Assembly: GCA_963777605.1 (NCBI GenBank) | Contig: CAVZRV010000011.1 | Coordinates: forward strand, 224,001 to 288,000 | Direction: 5' to 3' | Source: an uncultured Acidobacteriota bacterium | GTDB taxonomy: Bacteria > Acidobacteriota > UBA6911 > RPQK01 > JAPXNP01 | DNA length: 64,000 nt | Shown: positions 41,914 to 48,340 of the stretch, one piece after another | Position numbering within the stretch: the stretch's first letter is position 1 | How the letters are laid out: every line of letters begins with the position of its first letter | Made by a program: the position numbers and the translations under genes | The notes under the pieces: model-generated | The model's database searches: none | Told to the model about the DNA's origin: nothing | The model's input: the letters and a program-made list of their open reading frames with translations, nothing else

Positions 41914-43602
41914 ATGCAGAAGTTTCGGACGGGGCTGGGAAGCAAGGTCGGCAGACGGTTTTTGGCCATCTTCTGCCTGTCGTCTCTTCTCCCCTTGTCC
42001 GCTTTCGCAGTTGTTTCCTTCCTTGAGGTGAACCGACAACTTGCCACACAAAACAGTGAGCGGCTGCACCGAACCACCAAATCGCTGGCCCACACTCTGG
42101 TAGATCGACTGCTGCTGCTCAAGCAGGAATTGACCTACAAAGCCGGCGAAATTTACTGGCCGAGTGGTTCAGAAGACAACCCCACACTGCCGGAATCAAG
42201 TTCTCGATTCCTTTCTCTTGCGGTTCAGCGGGGATCCGAGATTCTGCCACTGGTGGGTGCCGCTCCCGAGCCCGTTTCTCTCTCGGAAGACTGCTACCCG
42301 CATTTGGCCTCGGGAGGGGCGCTCCTGTTCACTTCGGATACTCCTCGGCATCCAATTCTTCTGGCAGTCGCTCTGGATGGGAGCCAGCCGTTACGGGGGA
42401 TCCTGGTGGGTCAGCCCGATCCCACATTCCTTTTCGGCACCGACTACACCAACGTCGATACCCCTGGCACGGTCGTTATGGTCTTCGATAGCGATCGCCG
42501 TGAGCTCTTCTCTTCCGGCTCGCTGTCTGATGGAGAAATAGGAGAACTCTGCCAGGTCTTTCCAGAATTAGCCTCAACTGAATTCCGCTGGACTTGGGGA
42601 GACCACGAGTACGTGGCATACAACTGGTCGATACCGCTGAACTTTGAGTTTCATACCCGGCAATGGCACATCGTGCGGAGCGAGAACCAAGCCTGGGTTT
42701 TCGCACCCCTTCAGAACTTCCAGCGTGACTTCATTCTACTCTCCCTGATCTCCCTTCTGATCGTCGCTGCTTTGAGTTCGATGCAGATCCGAAGGAACCT
42801 GAATCCGCTGGCCGAGTTCCAGCAGGCCACACGGCGCATCGCCCACGGCGATTATCGAACCGCGGTGGAGGTCTTCAGCGGGGATGAATTTGAGGAACTG
42901 GCCCGATCCTTCAACCTCATGTCGGACGAGATCCGGGGACTCCACGTGAGCACCCTGACCGCCCTAGCGCGCACTGTGGACACCAAATCACCCTGGACAG
43001 CCGGACACTCAGAACGGGTGGCGGCAATGGCAGTCGAGATTGGAAGTCGCCTCGGCCTATCGGAGAGTGAGTTGGCGACGCTTCAAAGAGGTGCGCTGCT
43101 TCATGACATCGGGAAGATCGGGGTTTCCTCGGCGATTCTCGACAAGCCCGATAGACTCACCCACTCCGAAATGAGCAAGATCCGGGAACATCCCGTCATT
43201 GGGGCCAGGATCCTGGCGCCCATCAAAGCGTTCACTGAAGCACTTCCCCTGATTCGAGGACACCACGAGCGTATTGACGGCAAGGGGTATCCGGATGGAC
43301 TGAAAGGGGATCAGATCCGGTTCGATGTGAGAATCCTTGTGGTGGCAGATGCCGTGGATGCCATGATCTCGGATCGTCCGTATCGGCAAGGCATGTCTGC
43401 CGCGAATGCTGCTCGGATTATAAGGCAGGAGATCGGCCGCCAGTTCGATGCCCGAGTGTCCCAAGTTGCCCTCGAGCTGCTGGGACAGTCAGTAGACACC
43501 GATGGCATTCCGATACCCGTTGGACGGCCTGATCACCCGGAACCGCCACGTCTGCAACCGCCGCCCCAAACTCGCCAGCATCCTTCACTGGAGGTACTGT
43601 AA
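41914..43602 (+). CDS. Membrane sensor with HAMP and HD-GYP phosphodiesterase
   Basis: Two TMs around a periplasmic domain, HAMP, HDIGKIG, HHERIDGKGYP. Confidence 0.9.
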   Translation: MQKFRTGLGSKVGRRFLAIFCLSSLLPLSAFAVVSFLEVNRQLATQNSERLHRTTKSLAHTLVDRLLLLKQELTYKAGEIYWPSGSEDNPTLPESSSRFLSLAVQRGSEILPLVGAAPEPVSLSEDCYPHLASGGALLFTSDTPRHPILLAVALDGSQPLRGILVGQPDPTFLFGTDYTNVDTPGTVVMVFDSDRRELFSSGSLSDGEIGELCQVFPELASTEFRWTWGDHEYVAYNWSIPLNFEFHTRQWHIVRSENQAWVFAPLQNFQRDFILLSLISLLIVAALSSMQIRRNLNPLAEFQQATRRIAHGDYRTAVEVFSGDEFEELARSFNLMSDEIRGLHVSTLTALARTVDTKSPWTAGHSERVAAMAVEIGSRLGLSESELATLQRGALLHDIGKIGVSSAILDKPDRLTHSEMSKIREHPVIGARILAPIKAFTEALPLIRGHHERIDGKGYPDGLKGDQIRFDVRILVVADAVDAMISDRPYRQGMSAANAARIIRQEIGRQFDARVSQVALELLGQSVDTDGIPIPVGRPDHPEPPRLQPPPQTRQHPSLEVL

Positions 43603-44237: not shown

Positions 44238-44680
44238 TGCTGTGATTGGGACTGCACCCGCCGCGGTGGAGTTGGGACCGGGCGGGCTCTTGCTGGACGG
44301 AAGCGCGGTTGGAGTTGATTTCAAAACGGGACTGGCAGCGCTGGAGGTCCTCAGCAGAACCAGGCTCTTTACAAGCCGCGAGAAGAGTCTCAACCAGCAA
44401 TTGGTCGAACTCTTCGATCCGAAGCGATTCGAGTTGGGGTCTGTCCCCTTGCCGAGACTGTCCCTTTGCCGAAGAAATGCGGGGCCACTCCCGGGGCAGC
44501 ATATCCGGAACTGATCACAGGCCGGCTGACGGAAACACTCCTCCAGTTTGAGCCCCTGATCGTTTTCCGTGTCAAAATCACGGTTCAGCCAGGCATCGCA
44601 ATGCTGATTTCCGCCGCGAACGCAAGAGGGGAGCGCGAAGACCACATTCCCGTTCTCATCTGGTTTCTATTCGATCATCG

Positions 44681-46531
44681 CTAGGGGTAGGGATAGCGGT
44701 TGGTCCGCTACCCCTCCCTCCGAACCCGGCGTCCGGTTCTCCCGGACCGGGCTCTCCAGTTGGTGGTTCACCTCGAAGAGGATTGAGTGGCCGAGTCGTA
44801 GGCTGCAGTCAGGGAGAACAGCCTGCGCTCGCGGAAATAGGCGTTGGGCCAGCGTTGGTAGTCGGCACCCCGCGCTCGTCCTCGGAGACCGTGGCGTTTG
44901 CGAAGAATGGCTCGGAGCCGTCCGCGCACCCAGATATCGACTTGCTCAAACGTACGGCGGTTACTGTGTTTGTAATAGCCAAACCAGCCCCGCAGTCGCA
45001 GATTCACAAGTCGGATGATCGCGTCCAGACTCCGCCCATTCGCCCGCTTGGTCAGCGGCTTCAGATTGGCGCGAAGCTTCTGCATGCTCTTCTTCCGAGG
45101 ATACTTGACCAGCCGCGGCAGTCCGGACCTGCCTGCTTGAAAGTGGTACCCCAGGAAGTCAAACCCGTCCTCGTGAAGATCCACGATTCGGGTCTTCTCC
45201 GGATGCAATTCCAGCCCCACCGCCTCCATCCACTCCGCCAGCAGTCGCCACGCCCGGCGGGCTTCCTGCTCGCTTCGGCATAGGATCACCAGATCATCGG
45301 CATACCGGATCATCACGAAACCGGCTTGCTCCATCCGGTGGTCCAGTGGATTGAGATAGACGTTGGCCAGTAGTGGACTGATGACCGCCCCTTGCGGACA
45401 GCCTTCCTCCGGCGTCCAGTGCCGCAGCGCCTCGAAGATCTCCTGTTTCAGGAAAGCCTCGAGCAACTCCAGCACGCGTCCATCCGCCACTTGTCCCTGG
45501 ATCTCCTCCCGAAGCCGGGTGTGGGAGATTCGGTCAAAGTAGCTGCGGATGTCCGCATCGACCACCCAATAGTGGCCGCTCTGGATCGTCTGCTGCACCT
45601 GCCGTAAGGCATCCTTGCATCCGCGCCCCGGACGAAAACCAAAACTTCGCACGGCGAACGTTTCCTCAAAGATCGGTTCCAATACATTGCGTAGTGCCGT
45701 CTGCACTACCCGATCCCGCACCGTCGGAATCCCCAGCGGCCGCTTCTCGCGGCTGCCCGGTTTGTCGATATAGCTTCGACGGATTCCCTGCGGGCGGTAG
45801 GTCCCGTTCTTGAGGCTGTCGTGCAGCCGTTCCAGTTCCTCGTCCAGGCGCTTGTCGAACTGCTCGACCGTGACATGGTCCACTCCCGCCGCTCCCCGGT
45901 TGGCCTTCACTTTCGCAAAGGCCGCCCCCAAGTTGCGTTGACCGTAGACCTTGTCCATCAGGCTGAACCAGGCTCCTCCTTTCACTCCCGTTTCCAGGGC
46001 CTTCAACATCCGATCCGTCCATACGCTGCGTTCCGCCCAGTCCCACCGGGACCCGGCTTCTCCGACTTGTTTAGTCTCAGACACTGCCGTCGGTTGCTCT
46101 TCGCTGCCCATGTCGTCTCGTCTCCACCTTCCTGTCCCCCTTCGCTCCAGTCCCATTACAGGACCTTCATCACTACTATGAGGACTCGGACTCCTGTCCG
46201 ACCCTCTCCCGGGTCGGCAGGTCTCCCCACGCTCGCGTCGCATTGCCTTCTGTCGCCGTTCCGTCTCCAACCACGCCATGTCCCGCCCTTCTCTCTTTGA
46301 CAGCTACCCATATAGAGGAAGAACCGTCCTTTCGGATCAGGCTTCGCCATTCCACTGCAGGCTCGCCCAGACACATCGCCGAATCGAGTTCCTCGCGTAC
46401 GGACCGGTGACTCACCTCCTGTGCCCCCCACCCCGTCTCACGACGGCGCAGTAACATTCGGTTACAGGCCCGGAGAGCTCTGGCCTGGGAGGGACTTTCA
46501 CCCTCCTGACAATGCGCGCCTGTGGGCGCGC
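44681..46531 (-). mobile_element. Group II intron
   Basis: 5' GCGCGCCC; DV GAGAGCCCGGTCCGGGAGAACCGGACGCCGGGTTC; DVI ending CCCTACCCCTAG; RT ORF in DIV. Confidence 0.9.
44768..46111 (-). CDS. ltrA: Group II intron reverse transcriptase/maturase (no endonuclease domain)
   Basis: GAAGVD, RPLGIPTVRDR, PQGAVISPLLAN, RYADD, FDFLGY, WPNAYF. Confidence 0.95.
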   Translation of the reverse strand: MGSEEQPTAVSETKQVGEAGSRWDWAERSVWTDRMLKALETGVKGGAWFSLMDKVYGQRNLGAAFAKVKANRGAAGVDHVTVEQFDKRLDEELERLHDSLKNGTYRPQGIRRSYIDKPGSREKRPLGIPTVRDRVVQTALRNVLEPIFEETFAVRSFGFRPGRGCKDALRQVQQTIQSGHYWVVDADIRSYFDRISHTRLREEIQGQVADGRVLELLEAFLKQEIFEALRHWTPEEGCPQGAVISPLLANVYLNPLDHRMEQAGFVMIRYADDLVILCRSEQEARRAWRLLAEWMEAVGLELHPEKTRIVDLHEDGFDFLGYHFQAGRSGLPRLVKYPRKKSMQKLRANLKPLTKRANGRSLDAIIRLVNLRLRGWFGYYKHSNRRTFEQVDIWVRGRLRAILRKRHGLRGRARGADYQRWPNAYFRERRLFSLTAAYDSATQSSSR

Positions 46532-47101
46532 AATGGCGCTGCTCGCCGCAACCGCTCTGGTGGGAACACTCTTGTGATTTGCCCGCCGGTTCAGAGCAAG
46601 GCGGAACCCGGAAGGAATTCCCTTAGACTTCGATTGGGTGCACTGGAGGATCCGAAGGAATTGGAGCGTTCGGTGACGGCTGACTCCGCCTCCGATCCAG
46701 TTTCGCATTCTGCACGATCTCTGGAGCTGCGAGAGGGATAGGGATGACGCGATAAGTCTCTATCCAGTGAACCCTTGCCAGCGGTGGGGACCGGGTTCAT
46801 CATTGAAGGGATGGGGAAGGAGGCCATTCATGTCGGGGCGGTGCTGCGCCTGGTTTTCGTCGTCTCCTTTTTTTGGCTCCGGTTGGGATTGGAGCTCACT
46901 CACAAGTGTCGGAGCCGCCGAGGCGCTCCCCGCTTGCGCTCGCCTCGACCGGGAGATTCAGGAGACGACTCCCGGTACGGACGTTCTGGCCAGCGATCTC
47001 TTCTATCACCTCACAAGGGTGGTCCGCGGTAGGATCCACTCTAGCCTGGTCTCCTACCGGAACGAGGAAGCCAGCAGAACAAATACGAAAGGACGAATTC
47101 T

Positions 47102-48340
47102 GTGACGAGACAACTTACTCGACGGGACTTTGTTGGAACTTCAATCGCGGTAACAGCTGCAAGCCTTACCCGGGTTCGGGGCGCCAATGACCGGATCAAC
47201 ATCGGCATCATCGGGTGCGGCGACCGGGGACGGGAATCCCACATGAAGGACATCCTGAGCTTCCGCGATGACTGCAACGTGCAGATCGTGGCCGTCTGCG
47301 ACCCCTGGCGCCAGATGAGGGAAAAGGCGGCGGCGGACGTCAAGGCAGTTACCGGCCAGGAACCCAGGCAATTGGTTCATTACCAGGACCTCCTCGCAAT
47401 CCGGGACCTCGACGCCGTCACCATCGCCACGCCCGAACACCAACACTGCACCCAGTTGATCGCGGCCGTTGAGGCGGGAAAGGACGCCTACATCGAGAAG
47501 CCGCTGGCCATGAACATGGACGAACTGAAGCGCGCGGTCGATGCCGTCGACCGGGCCGGACGAGTGGTCCAGAACGGCACCCAGATCCGGAGTCTTCCCC
47601 AGGCACGGGCAGCCCGCAAGTTCCTTTCCGCCGGAGGGCTCGGGAAGGTCCTGAAGGCCTCGCAGGCGAGAAACGGATATCGTCCCTACTGGTACCAGTA
47701 CGCCGAACGCCCGATTCGAGAGGAGGACGTCGATTGGAAGGCATTTCTGATGCACCTGCCCGACCGTCCGTTCGATCCCGACCAGTACGCCGGCTGGTAT
47801 GCCTACCGGGAGTTTTCGAGAGGCCCCCATACCACCCAGGGTCTTCATTTCGTCGATACCGTGCACTACATAACAGGGGTCGGGGCACCAACGAGCGCCG
47901 TCGCCCACTTCGGGACCTACCGGTGGAAACATCCGCGGCGAACCGCCCCCGATTCAGTGGAAATGACATTCGAGTACCCGGAAGGCTTCGTGGTCCGCTA
48001 CGGCCAGTTCTTCGGAAACGCCTCAGGACGATTCCTGACCCTGTTTGGAACGAGAGGTTCAATCGACTGCAGCAACTGGTCGTGGGACGGGGAGTGGCCC
48101 CTCAGTGGCGAGGGAACCGAGGAACCGGACCGGATTCAGCCCGGTGCGAAGCTGCCCAAAGAAGGGAGTGTCCCCCACATGAAGAACTGGCTCGAGTGCC
48201 TCAGGACTCGCCAGGAACCGAACGCCCCCATGTCAGCCGGATATGCTCACGCGGTTGCCGGGATCCTGGCCGATGAATCATACGTTCGCGGTCGGAGGAT
48301 GAACTACGACCCGGTCACACGGGAGATCTCGGAAGCCTGA
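47102..48340 (+). CDS. Gfo/Idh/MocA oxidoreductase, Tat-exported
   Basis: TRRDFV, IGIIGCGDRG, ATPEHQH, YIEKP. Confidence 0.9.
   Translation: MTRQLTRRDFVGTSIAVTAASLTRVRGANDRINIGIIGCGDRGRESHMKDILSFRDDCNVQIVAVCDPWRQMREKAAADVKAVTGQEPRQLVHYQDLLAIRDLDAVTIATPEHQHCTQLIAAVEAGKDAYIEKPLAMNMDELKRAVDAVDRAGRVVQNGTQIRSLPQARAARKFLSAGGLGKVLKASQARNGYRPYWYQYAERPIREEDVDWKAFLMHLPDRPFDPDQYAGWYAYREFSRGPHTTQGLHFVDTVHYITGVGAPTSAVAHFGTYRWKHPRRTAPDSVEMTFEYPEGFVVRYGQFFGNASGRFLTLFGTRGSIDCSNWSWDGEWPLSGEGTEEPDRIQPGAKLPKEGSVPHMKNWLECLRTRQEPNAPMSAGYAHAVAGILADESYVRGRRMNYDPVTREISEA

What the first reader, a model, noticed from the sequence alone, without database searches (positions are those of the whole stretch)
44681..46531. 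Group II intron with non-canonical GC...AG ends and a compensatory gamma-gamma' pair
Known: group II introns start GUGYG and end AY, and the last base pairs with the first base of J2/3 (AGA/GGA). Seen on the minus strand: start GCGCGCCC (46531), DVI ending CCCTACCCCTAG (44681), and J2/3 reading GGAGTC-CGA-GTCCTC with C at 46188. A gamma C and a terminal G about 1.5 kb apart therefore restore the Watson-Crick pair, which argues against sequencing error. DV (AGC triad) and the YADD RT are intact. Inference: an active variant whose termini resemble spliceosomal GC-AG introns.
Basis: partly seen in the sequence, partly recalled or inferred. Interest (0 to 1): 0.75.

Follow-up and report, generated by a model that had tools for sequence, protein, structure and literature searches.

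The report
Group II intron with GC-AG ends
This is a real, recently mobile bacterial group II intron whose last base (G) and its internal pairing partner (C) have both changed so that they still pair, which confirms a known rule with an unusual natural variant.

Summary
A 1851-nt group II intron lies on the minus strand at 46531-44681. It has an intact RT/maturase without an endonuclease domain, an AGC domain V and a bulged branch A. It starts GCGCG, ends UAG, and J2/3 reads CGA with C at 46188.

Three covariations fix the boundaries:
- EBS1-IBS1 sets the 5' splice site.
- EBS3-IBS3 sets the 3' splice site.
- Gamma-gamma' is Watson-Crick in 49 of 49 distinct related introns: A-U 43, C-G 5, G-C 1.

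On an RT tree the gamma pair changed at least three times. C-G arose twice; an AU test rejects a single origin (p 0.010).

The genome holds four copies at different sites. Two are intact and differ by 2 nt; two are decaying. All four keep C2, C344 and the terminal G. Sequencing error and a dead relic are therefore very unlikely.

C2 arose once, after the C-G switch; a sister intron is GUGCG...UAG. The two unusual ends are therefore separate events. The likeness to spliceosomal GC-AG is superficial. No RNA data exist, so splicing is inferred.

Verdict: a new variant of a known kind, of moderate interest. The lineage also inserts just behind DNA hairpins, as class C introns do.

The parts
44681..46531 (-). 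Whole group II intron, 1851 nt
   Evidence: Four copies in the genome share exactly this stretch plus one conserved base on each side. The related intron in G032 aligns from 46531 to 44681.
46527..46531 (-). 5' pentamer GCGCG (consensus GUGYG); C2 is at 46530
   Evidence: Aligns column for column with GUGCG of 50 of 54 distinct relatives. Only window, L007, L046 and L047 have C2.
46532..46536 (-). IBS1 (CCAUU), last 5 nt of the 5' exon
   Evidence: Pairs with EBS1 AGUGG at all 5 positions. The other copies have CUGCU, CUACU and CCAAU. Relatives covary, e.g. GAGUG with CACUC and GAACG with CGUUC.
46352..46356 (-). EBS1 (AGUGG) in a D1 terminal loop
   Evidence: 24 of 36 distinct EBS1/IBS1 combinations are fully paired and 156 of 180 positions pair. 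Most failures are regex mis-hits. The loop is unpaired in the RNAalifold model.
46271..46271 (-). EBS3 (G, intron position 261)
   Evidence: A blind column scan finds this as the best complement to the first 3'-exon base: 46 of 49 rows, and 9 of 10 rows where that base is not C.
44680..44680 (-). IBS3 (C), first base of the 3' exon
   Evidence: C in all 4 copies. Pairs with G46271.
46226..46526 (-). Domain I. Its basal stems pair 46522-46526 with 46226-46230, and 46508-46518 with 46236-46247.
   Evidence: RNAalifold on 12 sequences. Both stems show double changes, e.g. column 17 with column 326: A-U 7, G-C 4.
46189..46225 (-). Domain II (short hairpin)
   Evidence: RNAalifold columns 341-408 with compensatory changes.
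46186..46188 (-). J2/3 = CGA; gamma is C at 46188
   Evidence: Lies between the covarying DII and DIII stems. Relatives read AGA (43), CGA (5) or GGA (1), matching a last base of U, G or C.
46134..46185 (-). Domain III
   Evidence: The stem covaries: GUCCUC/GGGGAC here, GCCCGC/...GGGC in L007, GUCGCC/GGCGAC in L008.
44768..46111 (-). RT/maturase ORF in domain IV, 447 aa, with YADD at 45304-45293 and no endonuclease domain
   Evidence: Pfam RVT_1 and GIIM only. The ATG at 46111 follows a GGAG-rich stretch. The longer ORF from 46279 would run through DI-DIII.
44722..44754 (-). Domain V, 33 nt, with AGC triad at 44751-44753 and a 5-nt terminal loop GAGAA
   Evidence: Rfam alignment and sequence. 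A 5-nt DV loop is named as a IIE/IIF trait in PMC3753933.
44681..44721 (-). Domain VI. The bulged branch A is at 44688, the penultimate A at 44682 and the terminal G (gamma') at 44681.
   Evidence: Rfam alignment. It is in the same register as CCCUACCCCUAU of the relatives.

Best explanation
This is a functional, recently mobile bacterial group II intron. It has no endonuclease domain, a IIB-like core and class E/F-like traits, and it starts GCGCG and ends UAG.

The terminal G (44681) pairs with C344 (46188), the first base of J2/3. This keeps the gamma-gamma' Watson-Crick pair that places the 3' splice site for exon ligation and for reverse splicing. In effect the usual purine(gamma)-pyrimidine(gamma') pair has been flipped.

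The flip happened in an ancestor that still began GUGCG. U2 to C2 came later, as a separate single event, in a background where position 17 was already G.

Shown here: the boundaries, by three covariations; the pair, by independent compensatory switches; and the copy history. Inferred: that the RNA splices and makes a lariat, and why C2 is tolerated.
For: Identity as a group II intron:
- Rfam RF00029 at 42.9 bits against a gathering score of 40.
- RVT_1 and GIIM in the ORF.
- Covarying DI basal stems, DII and DIII: 62 of 100 predicted pairs have double changes.

5' boundary:
- EBS1 AGUGG pairs with the 5 bases before G46531. It sits in the same columns as GAGUG/CACUC of L007 and GAACG/CGUUC of L008.

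3' boundary:
- The base after the terminal G pairs with G261 in 46 of 49 rows: G-C 37, U-A 5, A-U 4.

Gamma-gamma':
- 49 of 49 distinct introns are Watson-Crick: A-U 43, C-G 5 (window, L007, L047, L048, L093) and G-C 1 (L094).
- The tree needs at least 3 changes of the pair.
- Holding all C-G rows in one clade costs 85.5 log-likelihood units, AU p 0.010.

Unoccupied paralogues of the targets of copies 2, 3 and 4 fit the junctions without any indel. One example is accact|CGAC against accaat|cgac. Another is 29 nt from the junction to GCCGGAGGCC in both the occupied and the unoccupied repeat (the count was made by eye).

Recent mobility:
- Four copies at unrelated sites differ from the window copy by 2, 5 and 15 positions. 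None of the differences is at position 2, 344 or 1851.

Persistence:
- The C2/C-G form is kept in G032 (77% nt identity, 450-aa open frame) and in metagenome contigs L046 and L047 (RT 74% and 70% identical).

Order of events:
- L048 (GUGCG, C-G) is sister to the C2 clade. The 7-row clade has SH-aLRT 99 and the C2 subclade 87. Position 2 changes once on the tree.
Against: - There is no RNA evidence. No RNA run holds the stretch, so splicing, branching and the exact junctions are inferred.
- The empty sites are paralogous repeats in the same genome, not orthologous empty alleles. No same-genus genome was held, and the flanks matched nothing in 40 relatives.
- Taken alone, the flanks allow a shift of both boundaries by one base, because T precedes and C follows the intron in all four copies.
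- The boundaries of the relatives were set with the same HMM and regex procedure. Two rows (L093, L082) had to be corrected by eye.
- C2 has a single origin, so nothing statistical can be said about why it arose.
- The AU-test group was named after the tree had been seen.
- Two of the four copies are already broken (L003 has a frameshift and a DV change; L004 has three deletions), so decay is under way.
Confidence: 0.85

Rival explanations
1. The two unusual ends are one coupled adaptation. C2 would be needed because of, or be compensated by, the C-G gamma pair, for example through a tertiary contact between position 2 and the 3' end.
For: C2 is found only in introns that also have gamma C and, where the 3' end is present, a terminal G: window x4, L007 and L047, plus L046 whose 3' end is cut.
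Against: L048 and L093 have the C-G pair with an ordinary U2. C2 arose once, so the association rests on one event. In the one structure paper read, U2 contacts a D6 G-C pair before branching, not gamma-gamma' (PMC10733145 passages). The D6 3' strand UCCCUA is the same in C2 and U2 relatives.
Confidence: 0.12
2. C2 is a compensatory change in a local 5' hairpin (nt 1-6 with 13-18) that hides the 5' splice site. This hairpin competes with the DI basal stem for nt 14-18, making a folding switch.
For: Positions 1-6 and 13-18 can pair in 81% of cells across 54 distinct 5' ends. Pair 2:17 is U-A 26, U-G 17, C-G 4, other 7. All C2 introns have G17, and L012, the closest 5' end with U2, has U-G. The 3' strand of the DI stem reads like the intron's 5' pentamer and carries the parallel U-to-C change: the triplets are UAU 26, UGC 12, CGC 3.
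Against: The GC-alternating sequence pairs almost as well when slid by 2 columns (63-68%). Strong covariation assigns nt 14-24 to the DI basal stem. G17 with U2 is common (12 of 49), so a single C2 origin falling in that background has roughly a 0.3 chance expectation. Nothing was read in the literature on such a hairpin.
Confidence: 0.2
3. The true boundaries are shifted by one base, so the intron would run U...A or C...C and the ends would not be GC...AG.
For: All four copies are preceded by T and followed by C. Copy comparison and the paralogous empty sites of copies 2 and 3 alone allow a shift of plus or minus one.
Against: The EBS1-IBS1 register is the same as in relatives with canonical GUGCG. 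EBS3 pairs with the base after the G. The gamma column covaries with that G. A shift costs one extra mismatch against the empty paralogue of copy 4.
Confidence: 0.03
4. It is an inactive relic or an assembly or sequencing error, and the odd ends are damage.
For: Two of the four copies are degenerate. The window copy sits in an intergenic stretch with no sign of expression data.
Against: The same three bases occur in 4 copies on 3 contigs. They also occur in another genome and in separate metagenome contigs. The changes are compensatory. The RT ORF, YADD, DV triad and branch A are intact. Two copies differ by only 2 of 1851 nt at different sites.
Confidence: 0.04

Closest known systems
Bacterial group II introns of the endonuclease-less, IIB-like classes E and F (including Toro's g1-g4 varieties and the unclassified Kuenenia intron named in PMC3552965)
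   Same: The ORF has RT and maturase only. The ribozyme is small: 398 nt for DI-DIII and 74 nt for DV-DVI. It has an AGC triad, J2/3 of the form gamma-G-A, a single-base EBS3, and the 5-nt DV loop that PMC3753933 names as a IIE/IIF trait.
   Different: It starts GCGCG and ends UAG with gamma C. RT clade membership was not tested, because no reference sequences were available. Rfam's D1-D4 models do not reach threshold: the best is RF02003 at 20 bits against 49. Most relatives sit 0-6 nt behind a hairpin, which the 2015 review ascribes to class C only.
[quoted passage not shown]
   Same: A single Watson-Crick pair forms between the first J2/3 base and the last intron base. It covaries across relatives.
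   Different: PMC4238363 describes gamma as a purine and says natural G-C and A-U are about equally frequent. Here the pyrimidine is in J2/3 and the purine is at the 3' end.
RmInt1 (class D) and other introns with non-consensus ends
   Same: These are natural mobile introns that depart from GUGYG...AY. RmInt1 ends CC. Travisia mitochondrial introns begin GCGCG. A predicted integron-linked intron was drawn as UUGCG...GU.
   Different: None of those passages reports a terminal G paired with a J2/3 C, or GC and AG together.
Class C (IIC) introns
   Same: They lack the endonuclease domain, are small, and insert a few bases behind a DNA stem-loop.
   Different: EBS1-IBS1 here is 5 bp, against the 3-4 bp stated for IIC. 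The DV loop has 5 nt. The four window-genome copies have only weak hairpins (z from -0.65 to +1.2).
Spliceosomal GC-AG (and GU-AG) introns
   Same: The first two and last two letters match. L048 and L093 are literally GU...AG.
   Different: Here the terminal G makes a Watson-Crick pair with an internal C of the ribozyme, and the penultimate A and G1 are unchanged. There is no evidence of shared descent of this trait; it arose at least twice within one bacterial lineage.

Membership tests
Group II intron | Domain V with catalytic triad and 2-nt bulge, followed by domain VI with a bulged A | tested here: met
   RF00029 scores 42.9 bits against a gathering score of 40, over the full model 1-77. 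AGC is at 44751-44753 and the branch A at 44688.
Group II intron | Intron-encoded RT with YADD and a maturase (X) domain in domain IV | tested here: met
   RVT_1 at 1.7e-42 and GIIM at 3e-14. YADD is at 45304-45293.
Group II intron | Domains I-III with conserved helices supported by covariation | tested here: met
   RNAalifold on 12 sequences gives 100 pairs, 62 of them with double changes. The DI basal stems, DII and DIII are all found.
Group II intron | EBS1-IBS1 and EBS3-IBS3 pairings that define the splice sites | tested here: met
   for EBS1. for EBS3 (46 of 49).
Group II intron | Gamma-gamma' Watson-Crick pair | tested here: met
   C46188 pairs with G44681. 49 of 49 relatives are Watson-Crick.
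Group II intron | Consensus termini 5' GUGYG and 3' AY (a consensus, not a requirement: exceptions are in print) | tested here: not met
   The termini are GCGCG and AG. This is the variant reported here. Homology to GUGCG...UAU relatives runs along the whole length.
Group II intron | Splicing through a lariat, and retromobility | not testable with these tools
   No RNA run holds the stretch. Mobility is inferred from 4 copies at different sites.
Class E/F (IIB-like, no endonuclease) | 5-nt DV terminal loop and a small ribozyme (450-700 nt without the ORF) | tested here: met
   The loop is GAGAA. DI-DIII has 398 nt and DV-DVI 74 nt, plus DIV stubs. The criterion comes from PMC3753933.
Class E/F (IIB-like, no endonuclease) | Alpha' in a terminal loop of DId3 and an extra bulge loop in DId3 | not tested
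   Alpha-alpha' was not located.
Class E/F (IIB-like, no endonuclease) | RT groups with class E or F reference proteins | not testable with these tools
   No named reference intron sequences were available. The classes themselves are unsettled according to PMC3552965.
Class C (IIC) | Insertion just behind a stem-loop | tested here: inconclusive
   Relatives: the hairpin ends a median of 3 nt before the intron. The 40 nt next to the intron fold better than the 40 nt further upstream in 44 of 61 sites. The window genome's own four sites have weak stems only.
Class C (IIC) | Short EBS1 (3-4 bp) and a 4-nt DV loop | tested here: not met
   EBS1-IBS1 is 5 bp and covaries. The DV loop has 5 nt. The IIC figure is from PMC7923331.

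The most novel reading that the evidence does not exclude
This E/F-like lineage without an endonuclease would be a second, independent group of hairpin-targeting group II introns. Within it the 3'-terminal pair flipped to C-G at least twice, producing natural mobile introns with the nuclear-intron termini GU...AG (L048, L093) and GC...AG (window clade). The 5' pentamer would also be a copy of the 3' strand of the DI basal stem. The two would compete for nt 14-18 as a folding switch, and C2 arose as a compensatory change in that switch.
Probability: 0.2. Interest if true: 0.6.

Novelty: new variant of a known kind. Interest (0 to 1): 0.4.

Why it matters
The gamma-gamma' pair is a textbook element of second-step catalysis. 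The passages read describe it as purine(J2/3)-pyrimidine(3' end), which gives the AY end. Here nature has run the mutagenesis experiment. The pair was exchanged three times in one lineage, twice to the flipped C-G form, with mobility retained. This shows that the orientation is not essential.

It also yields natural, probably active group II introns that end in AG and begin GU or GC. These are useful test cases in two areas: discussions of how nuclear intron termini could have arisen, and engineering of 3' splice sites.

The practical consequence is for annotation. Pipelines that demand GUGYG...AY will misplace or miss these introns.

The hairpin-adjacent insertion sites of a non-IIC lineage may be the more original lead, if they hold up.

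Tried and rejected
Orthologous empty site. The intron with 430-580 nt of flank on each side was searched in 40 relatives. The flanks matched nowhere, and no same-genus genome is held. Only paralogous empty repeats inside the same genome could be used.

RNA evidence. No RNA holder is listed among 20 runs.

Laying contigs of 4 DNA runs. Only pieces of the intron and of related introns were covered, the flanks had no cover, and the two joints reported are short-sided and internal. Nothing was learned about an empty allele.

G005 and G013. These hold a 5' end (GUGCG, U-G at 2:17) and a 3' end (UAG) at contig ends. A direct search found no further pieces, so they stay partial.

Rfam D1-D4 models. 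The best is RF02003 at 20 bits against a gathering score of 49, so they give no help with class.

Class assignment by RT phylogeny. It was not possible without named references.

A link between C2 and D6, prompted by the U2 base triple in PMC10733145. The D6 3' strand is unchanged between C2 and U2 relatives, so there is no covariation to report.

Literature. Full-text searches and passages of ten papers turned up no report of a natural C(gamma)-G(gamma') pair or a terminal G. The library lacks most subscription papers, the 1989-1990 compilations and the intron database, so this is not proof of absence. Supplements were not asked for.

A phylum-wide sample found two further close relatives among the 401 genomes searched, a count that includes this one. 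G220 and G154 are both canonical GUGCG / gamma A / UAU.

Rows dropped:
- Of 105 loci scanned, 54 had a 5' end, J2/3 and 3' exon, and 49 of these were distinct. The rest end at contig edges or belong to distant lineages (L024, L108-L111, L116).
- The tree used 76 rows. Same-genome duplicates (L018, L021, L027, L031, L032, L033, L040) and rows covering fewer than 330 residues were left out.
Full report
WHAT IS THERE. On the minus strand of the window, 46531 to 44681, lies an 1851-nt group II intron.
- Rfam's DV-DVI model RF00029 matches 44756-44681 over its full length at 42.9 bits (gathering score 40, E 3.8e-6). The model's last two positions 'Au' fall on 'AG'.
- The internal ORF carries RVT_1 (1.7e-42) and the group II maturase domain GIIM (3e-14), and no other Pfam family, so it has no endonuclease domain.
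- I take the ATG at 46111 as the start, giving 447 aa. The mechanical ORF from 46279 would run through domains I-III.
- YADD is at 45304-45293. The DV AGC triad is at 44751-44753. The bulged A is at 44688, eight bases from the end.
- All coordinates in the finding are right: GCGCGCCC at 46531, CCCTACCCCTAG ending at 44681, and ggagtc-CGA-gtcctc with C at 46188.

COPIES AND BOUNDARIES. The genome holds four copies: the window copy, C23:23314-25164, one near C11:298410-300276, and C30:148832-150679.
- Against the window copy they differ at 2, 5 and 15 positions.
- L003 has a one-base insertion that breaks the RT, plus a DV change. L004 has three one-base deletions and stop codons.
- No difference touches position 2, 344 or 1851.
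- The flanks are unrelated except for a T before and a C after the intron. By themselves the copies therefore fix the boundaries only to within one base.

Three independent pairings remove that ambiguity.
- EBS1. The loop 5-mer AGUGG (46356-46352) pairs with the five bases before G46531 in copy 1 (CCAUU). It pairs with CUGCU and CUACU in copies 2 and 3, and with CCAAU (one mismatch) in copy 4. In the same alignment columns L007 has GAGUG against CACUC and L008 has GAACG against CGUUC. A regex extraction found 24 of 36 distinct EBS1/IBS1 combinations fully paired, and 156 of 180 positions paired. Most failures, and the 17 rows with no motif, are extraction errors. Several of those rows show the complementary 5-mer by eye.
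- EBS3. A blind scan of every column of a 49-sequence alignment finds intron position 261 (G46271) as the best complement to the first 3'-exon base. It matches in 46 of 49 rows: G-C 37, U-A 5, A-U 4.
- Gamma. The same scan finds position 344 (C46188) as the best complement to the last intron base, with 6 of 6 matches where that base is not U.

Unoccupied paralogues of the targets of copies 2, 3 and 4 exist in the same genome, and they fit these junctions without indels. They are paralogues, not empty alleles.

GAMMA-GAMMA' COVARIATION. Relatives came from four searches:
- 40 related genomes;
- the order, where 18 of 76 genomes had an RT match at E <= 1e-60;
- one genome-contig scan, giving 5 loci;
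- one metagenome scan, giving 78 loci.

With J2/3 located as the three bases before the covarying DIII stem, all 49 distinct introns that have both ends are Watson-Crick (L093 and L082 were corrected by eye). The counts are:
- A-U: 43.
- C-G: 5 (window, L007 from genome G032, L047, L048, L093).
- G-C: 1 (L094).

Partial members agree. L046 has gamma C and C2 but a cut 3' end. L009 (G013) has the UAG end only.

On an RT tree (IQ-TREE quick, LG+G4, 76 rows):
- The window clade of 7 rows has SH-aLRT 99.
- L093 groups elsewhere, with A-U introns (95).
- L094 nests among A-U introns (97).
- Parsimony needs 3 changes of the pair.
- Forcing all C-G rows together costs 85.5 log-likelihood units, AU p 0.010. 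The caveat is that the group was named after the tree had been seen.

Two further relatives from a 401-genome phylum sample are canonical.

THE GC START IS A SEPARATE EVENT. C2 occurs only in the window copies, L007, L046 and L047. L048, their sister, is GUGCG with the C-G pair, as is L093. Position 2 changes once on the tree. So the order was A-U to C-G first, and U2 to C2 later.

Why C2 is tolerated is open. One lead concerns a local hairpin.
- Nucleotides 1-6 can pair with 13-18 in 81% of cells across 54 distinct 5' ends. Pair 2:17 is U-A 26, U-G 17, C-G 4, other 7.
- However, the alternating GC sequence pairs nearly as well when slid by two columns.
- RNAalifold assigns nt 14-24 to the DI basal stem with strong covariation; column 17 with column 326 is A-U 7, G-C 4.
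- The 3' strand of that stem reads like the intron's own 5' pentamer and carries the parallel U-to-C change. The triplets (position 2, position 17, stem partner) are UAU 26, UGC 12, CGC 3.
- That is compatible with a competing 5' hairpin. With one origin of C2, and G17 present in 15 of 49 rows, it is only a hypothesis.

From the literature I can say this much: in the E.r. intron RNP, U2 makes a base triple with a D6 G-C pair before branching (PMC10733145, passages). The corresponding D6 strand does not differ between C2 and U2 relatives here.

HOW IT MOST LIKELY WORKS.
- Established knowledge, from passages of PMC6224600, PMC3669008 and PMC10733145: the last intron base pairs with the first J2/3 base to bring the 3' splice site to the catalytic metals. 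It also holds the 3' end of the excised intron for reverse splicing.
- Shown here: in this intron that pair is C344-G1851.
- Inferred: splicing and retromobility proceed as in its GUGCG...UAU relatives.
- Recent movement is inferred from two intact copies 2 nt apart at different sites.
- Long-term function of the variant is inferred from its retention, with open RT frames, in relatives 70-77% identical in protein.

COMPARISON WITH WHAT IS KNOWN.
- PMC4238363 (passages) describes gamma as a purine, says natural G-C and A-U are about equally frequent, and presents RmInt1's CC end as a deviation.
- PMC8924214 reports mitochondrial introns that begin GCGCG.
- PMC7923331 draws a predicted intron as UUGCG...GU.
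- I found no report of a J2/3 pyrimidine paired with a terminal purine. The library is partial.
- The 5-nt DV loop and the small size match the IIE/IIF description in PMC3753933 (passages; Introduction). Class membership by RT phylogeny could not be tested.
- The resemblance to nuclear GC-AG introns is in the letters only.

SIDE OBSERVATION. In 67 distinct insertion sites a hairpin ends a median of 3 nt before the intron. The 40 nt next to the intron fold better than the 40 nt further upstream in 44 of 61 sites. The medians are -14.4 and -9.7 kcal/mol, Wilcoxon p 5e-6; the sites are distinct but the introns are related. The 2015 review states that only class C targets such motifs (PMC4424553 passages). 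The window genome's own four sites have weak stems.

VERDICT. It is a new variant of a known kind. Interest is 0.4.

Noticed in passing
Loci L008, L012, L023, L028, L036, L046, L047, L055, L056, L061 and others (5' flanks); window 46532-46571: Nearly all relatives sit 0-6 nt behind a 6-12 bp hairpin that overlaps IBS1, as class C introns do. Yet the ribozyme has a 5-bp EBS1, an AGC triad and a 5-nt DV loop. The window genome's own four sites have weak stems only.
   Followed up: partly
G000 C23:23284-23313 and paralogues at C27:46834-46794, C31:300383-300358, C15:185487-185511, C11:99897-99873, C11:99748-99772, C7:1116364-1116332, C23:22754-22730: Copies 2 and 3 are inserted in members of a short dispersed repeat (ttcagtacgcgag..gagcgagcgc, then 4 variable bases, then the junction, then a conserved tail with GCCGGAGGCC). 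At least 7 members are unoccupied. One has IBS1 CUACU followed by C, so it looks like a ready target.
   Followed up: partly
L068:~500-560: One metagenome intron begins 3 nt after the CCCUACCCCUAU end of another intron of the same family. This is a tandem insertion that uses the neighbour's domain VI as the upstream hairpin.
   Followed up: no
window 46514-46531 and 46236-46247: The first 18 nt form a perfect 7-bp hairpin (GCGCGCC/GGCGCGC). The 3' strand of the DI basal stem repeats the intron's 5' pentamer, so the two compete for nt 14-18.
   Followed up: partly
G000 C13:13985-14059(-), C13:208668-208741(+), C29:271719-271795(+): There are three further RF00029 matches of other group II intron families in the same genome (41.8, 40.5 and 35.9 bits). 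The first ends in a canonical AC.
   Followed up: no
L046:~1849-1985: This C2 relative has domain VI cut off after CCCUAC and continues into unrelated sequence. It is either a 3'-truncated copy or an assembly join.
   Followed up: no
window 41914-43602 (+) and 47102-48340 (+): The intron lies antisense in the gap between two plus-strand ORFs of 562 aa and 412 aa. By eye the first ends in an HD-GYP-like motif (recalled, not searched). Neither ORF was analysed.
   Followed up: no
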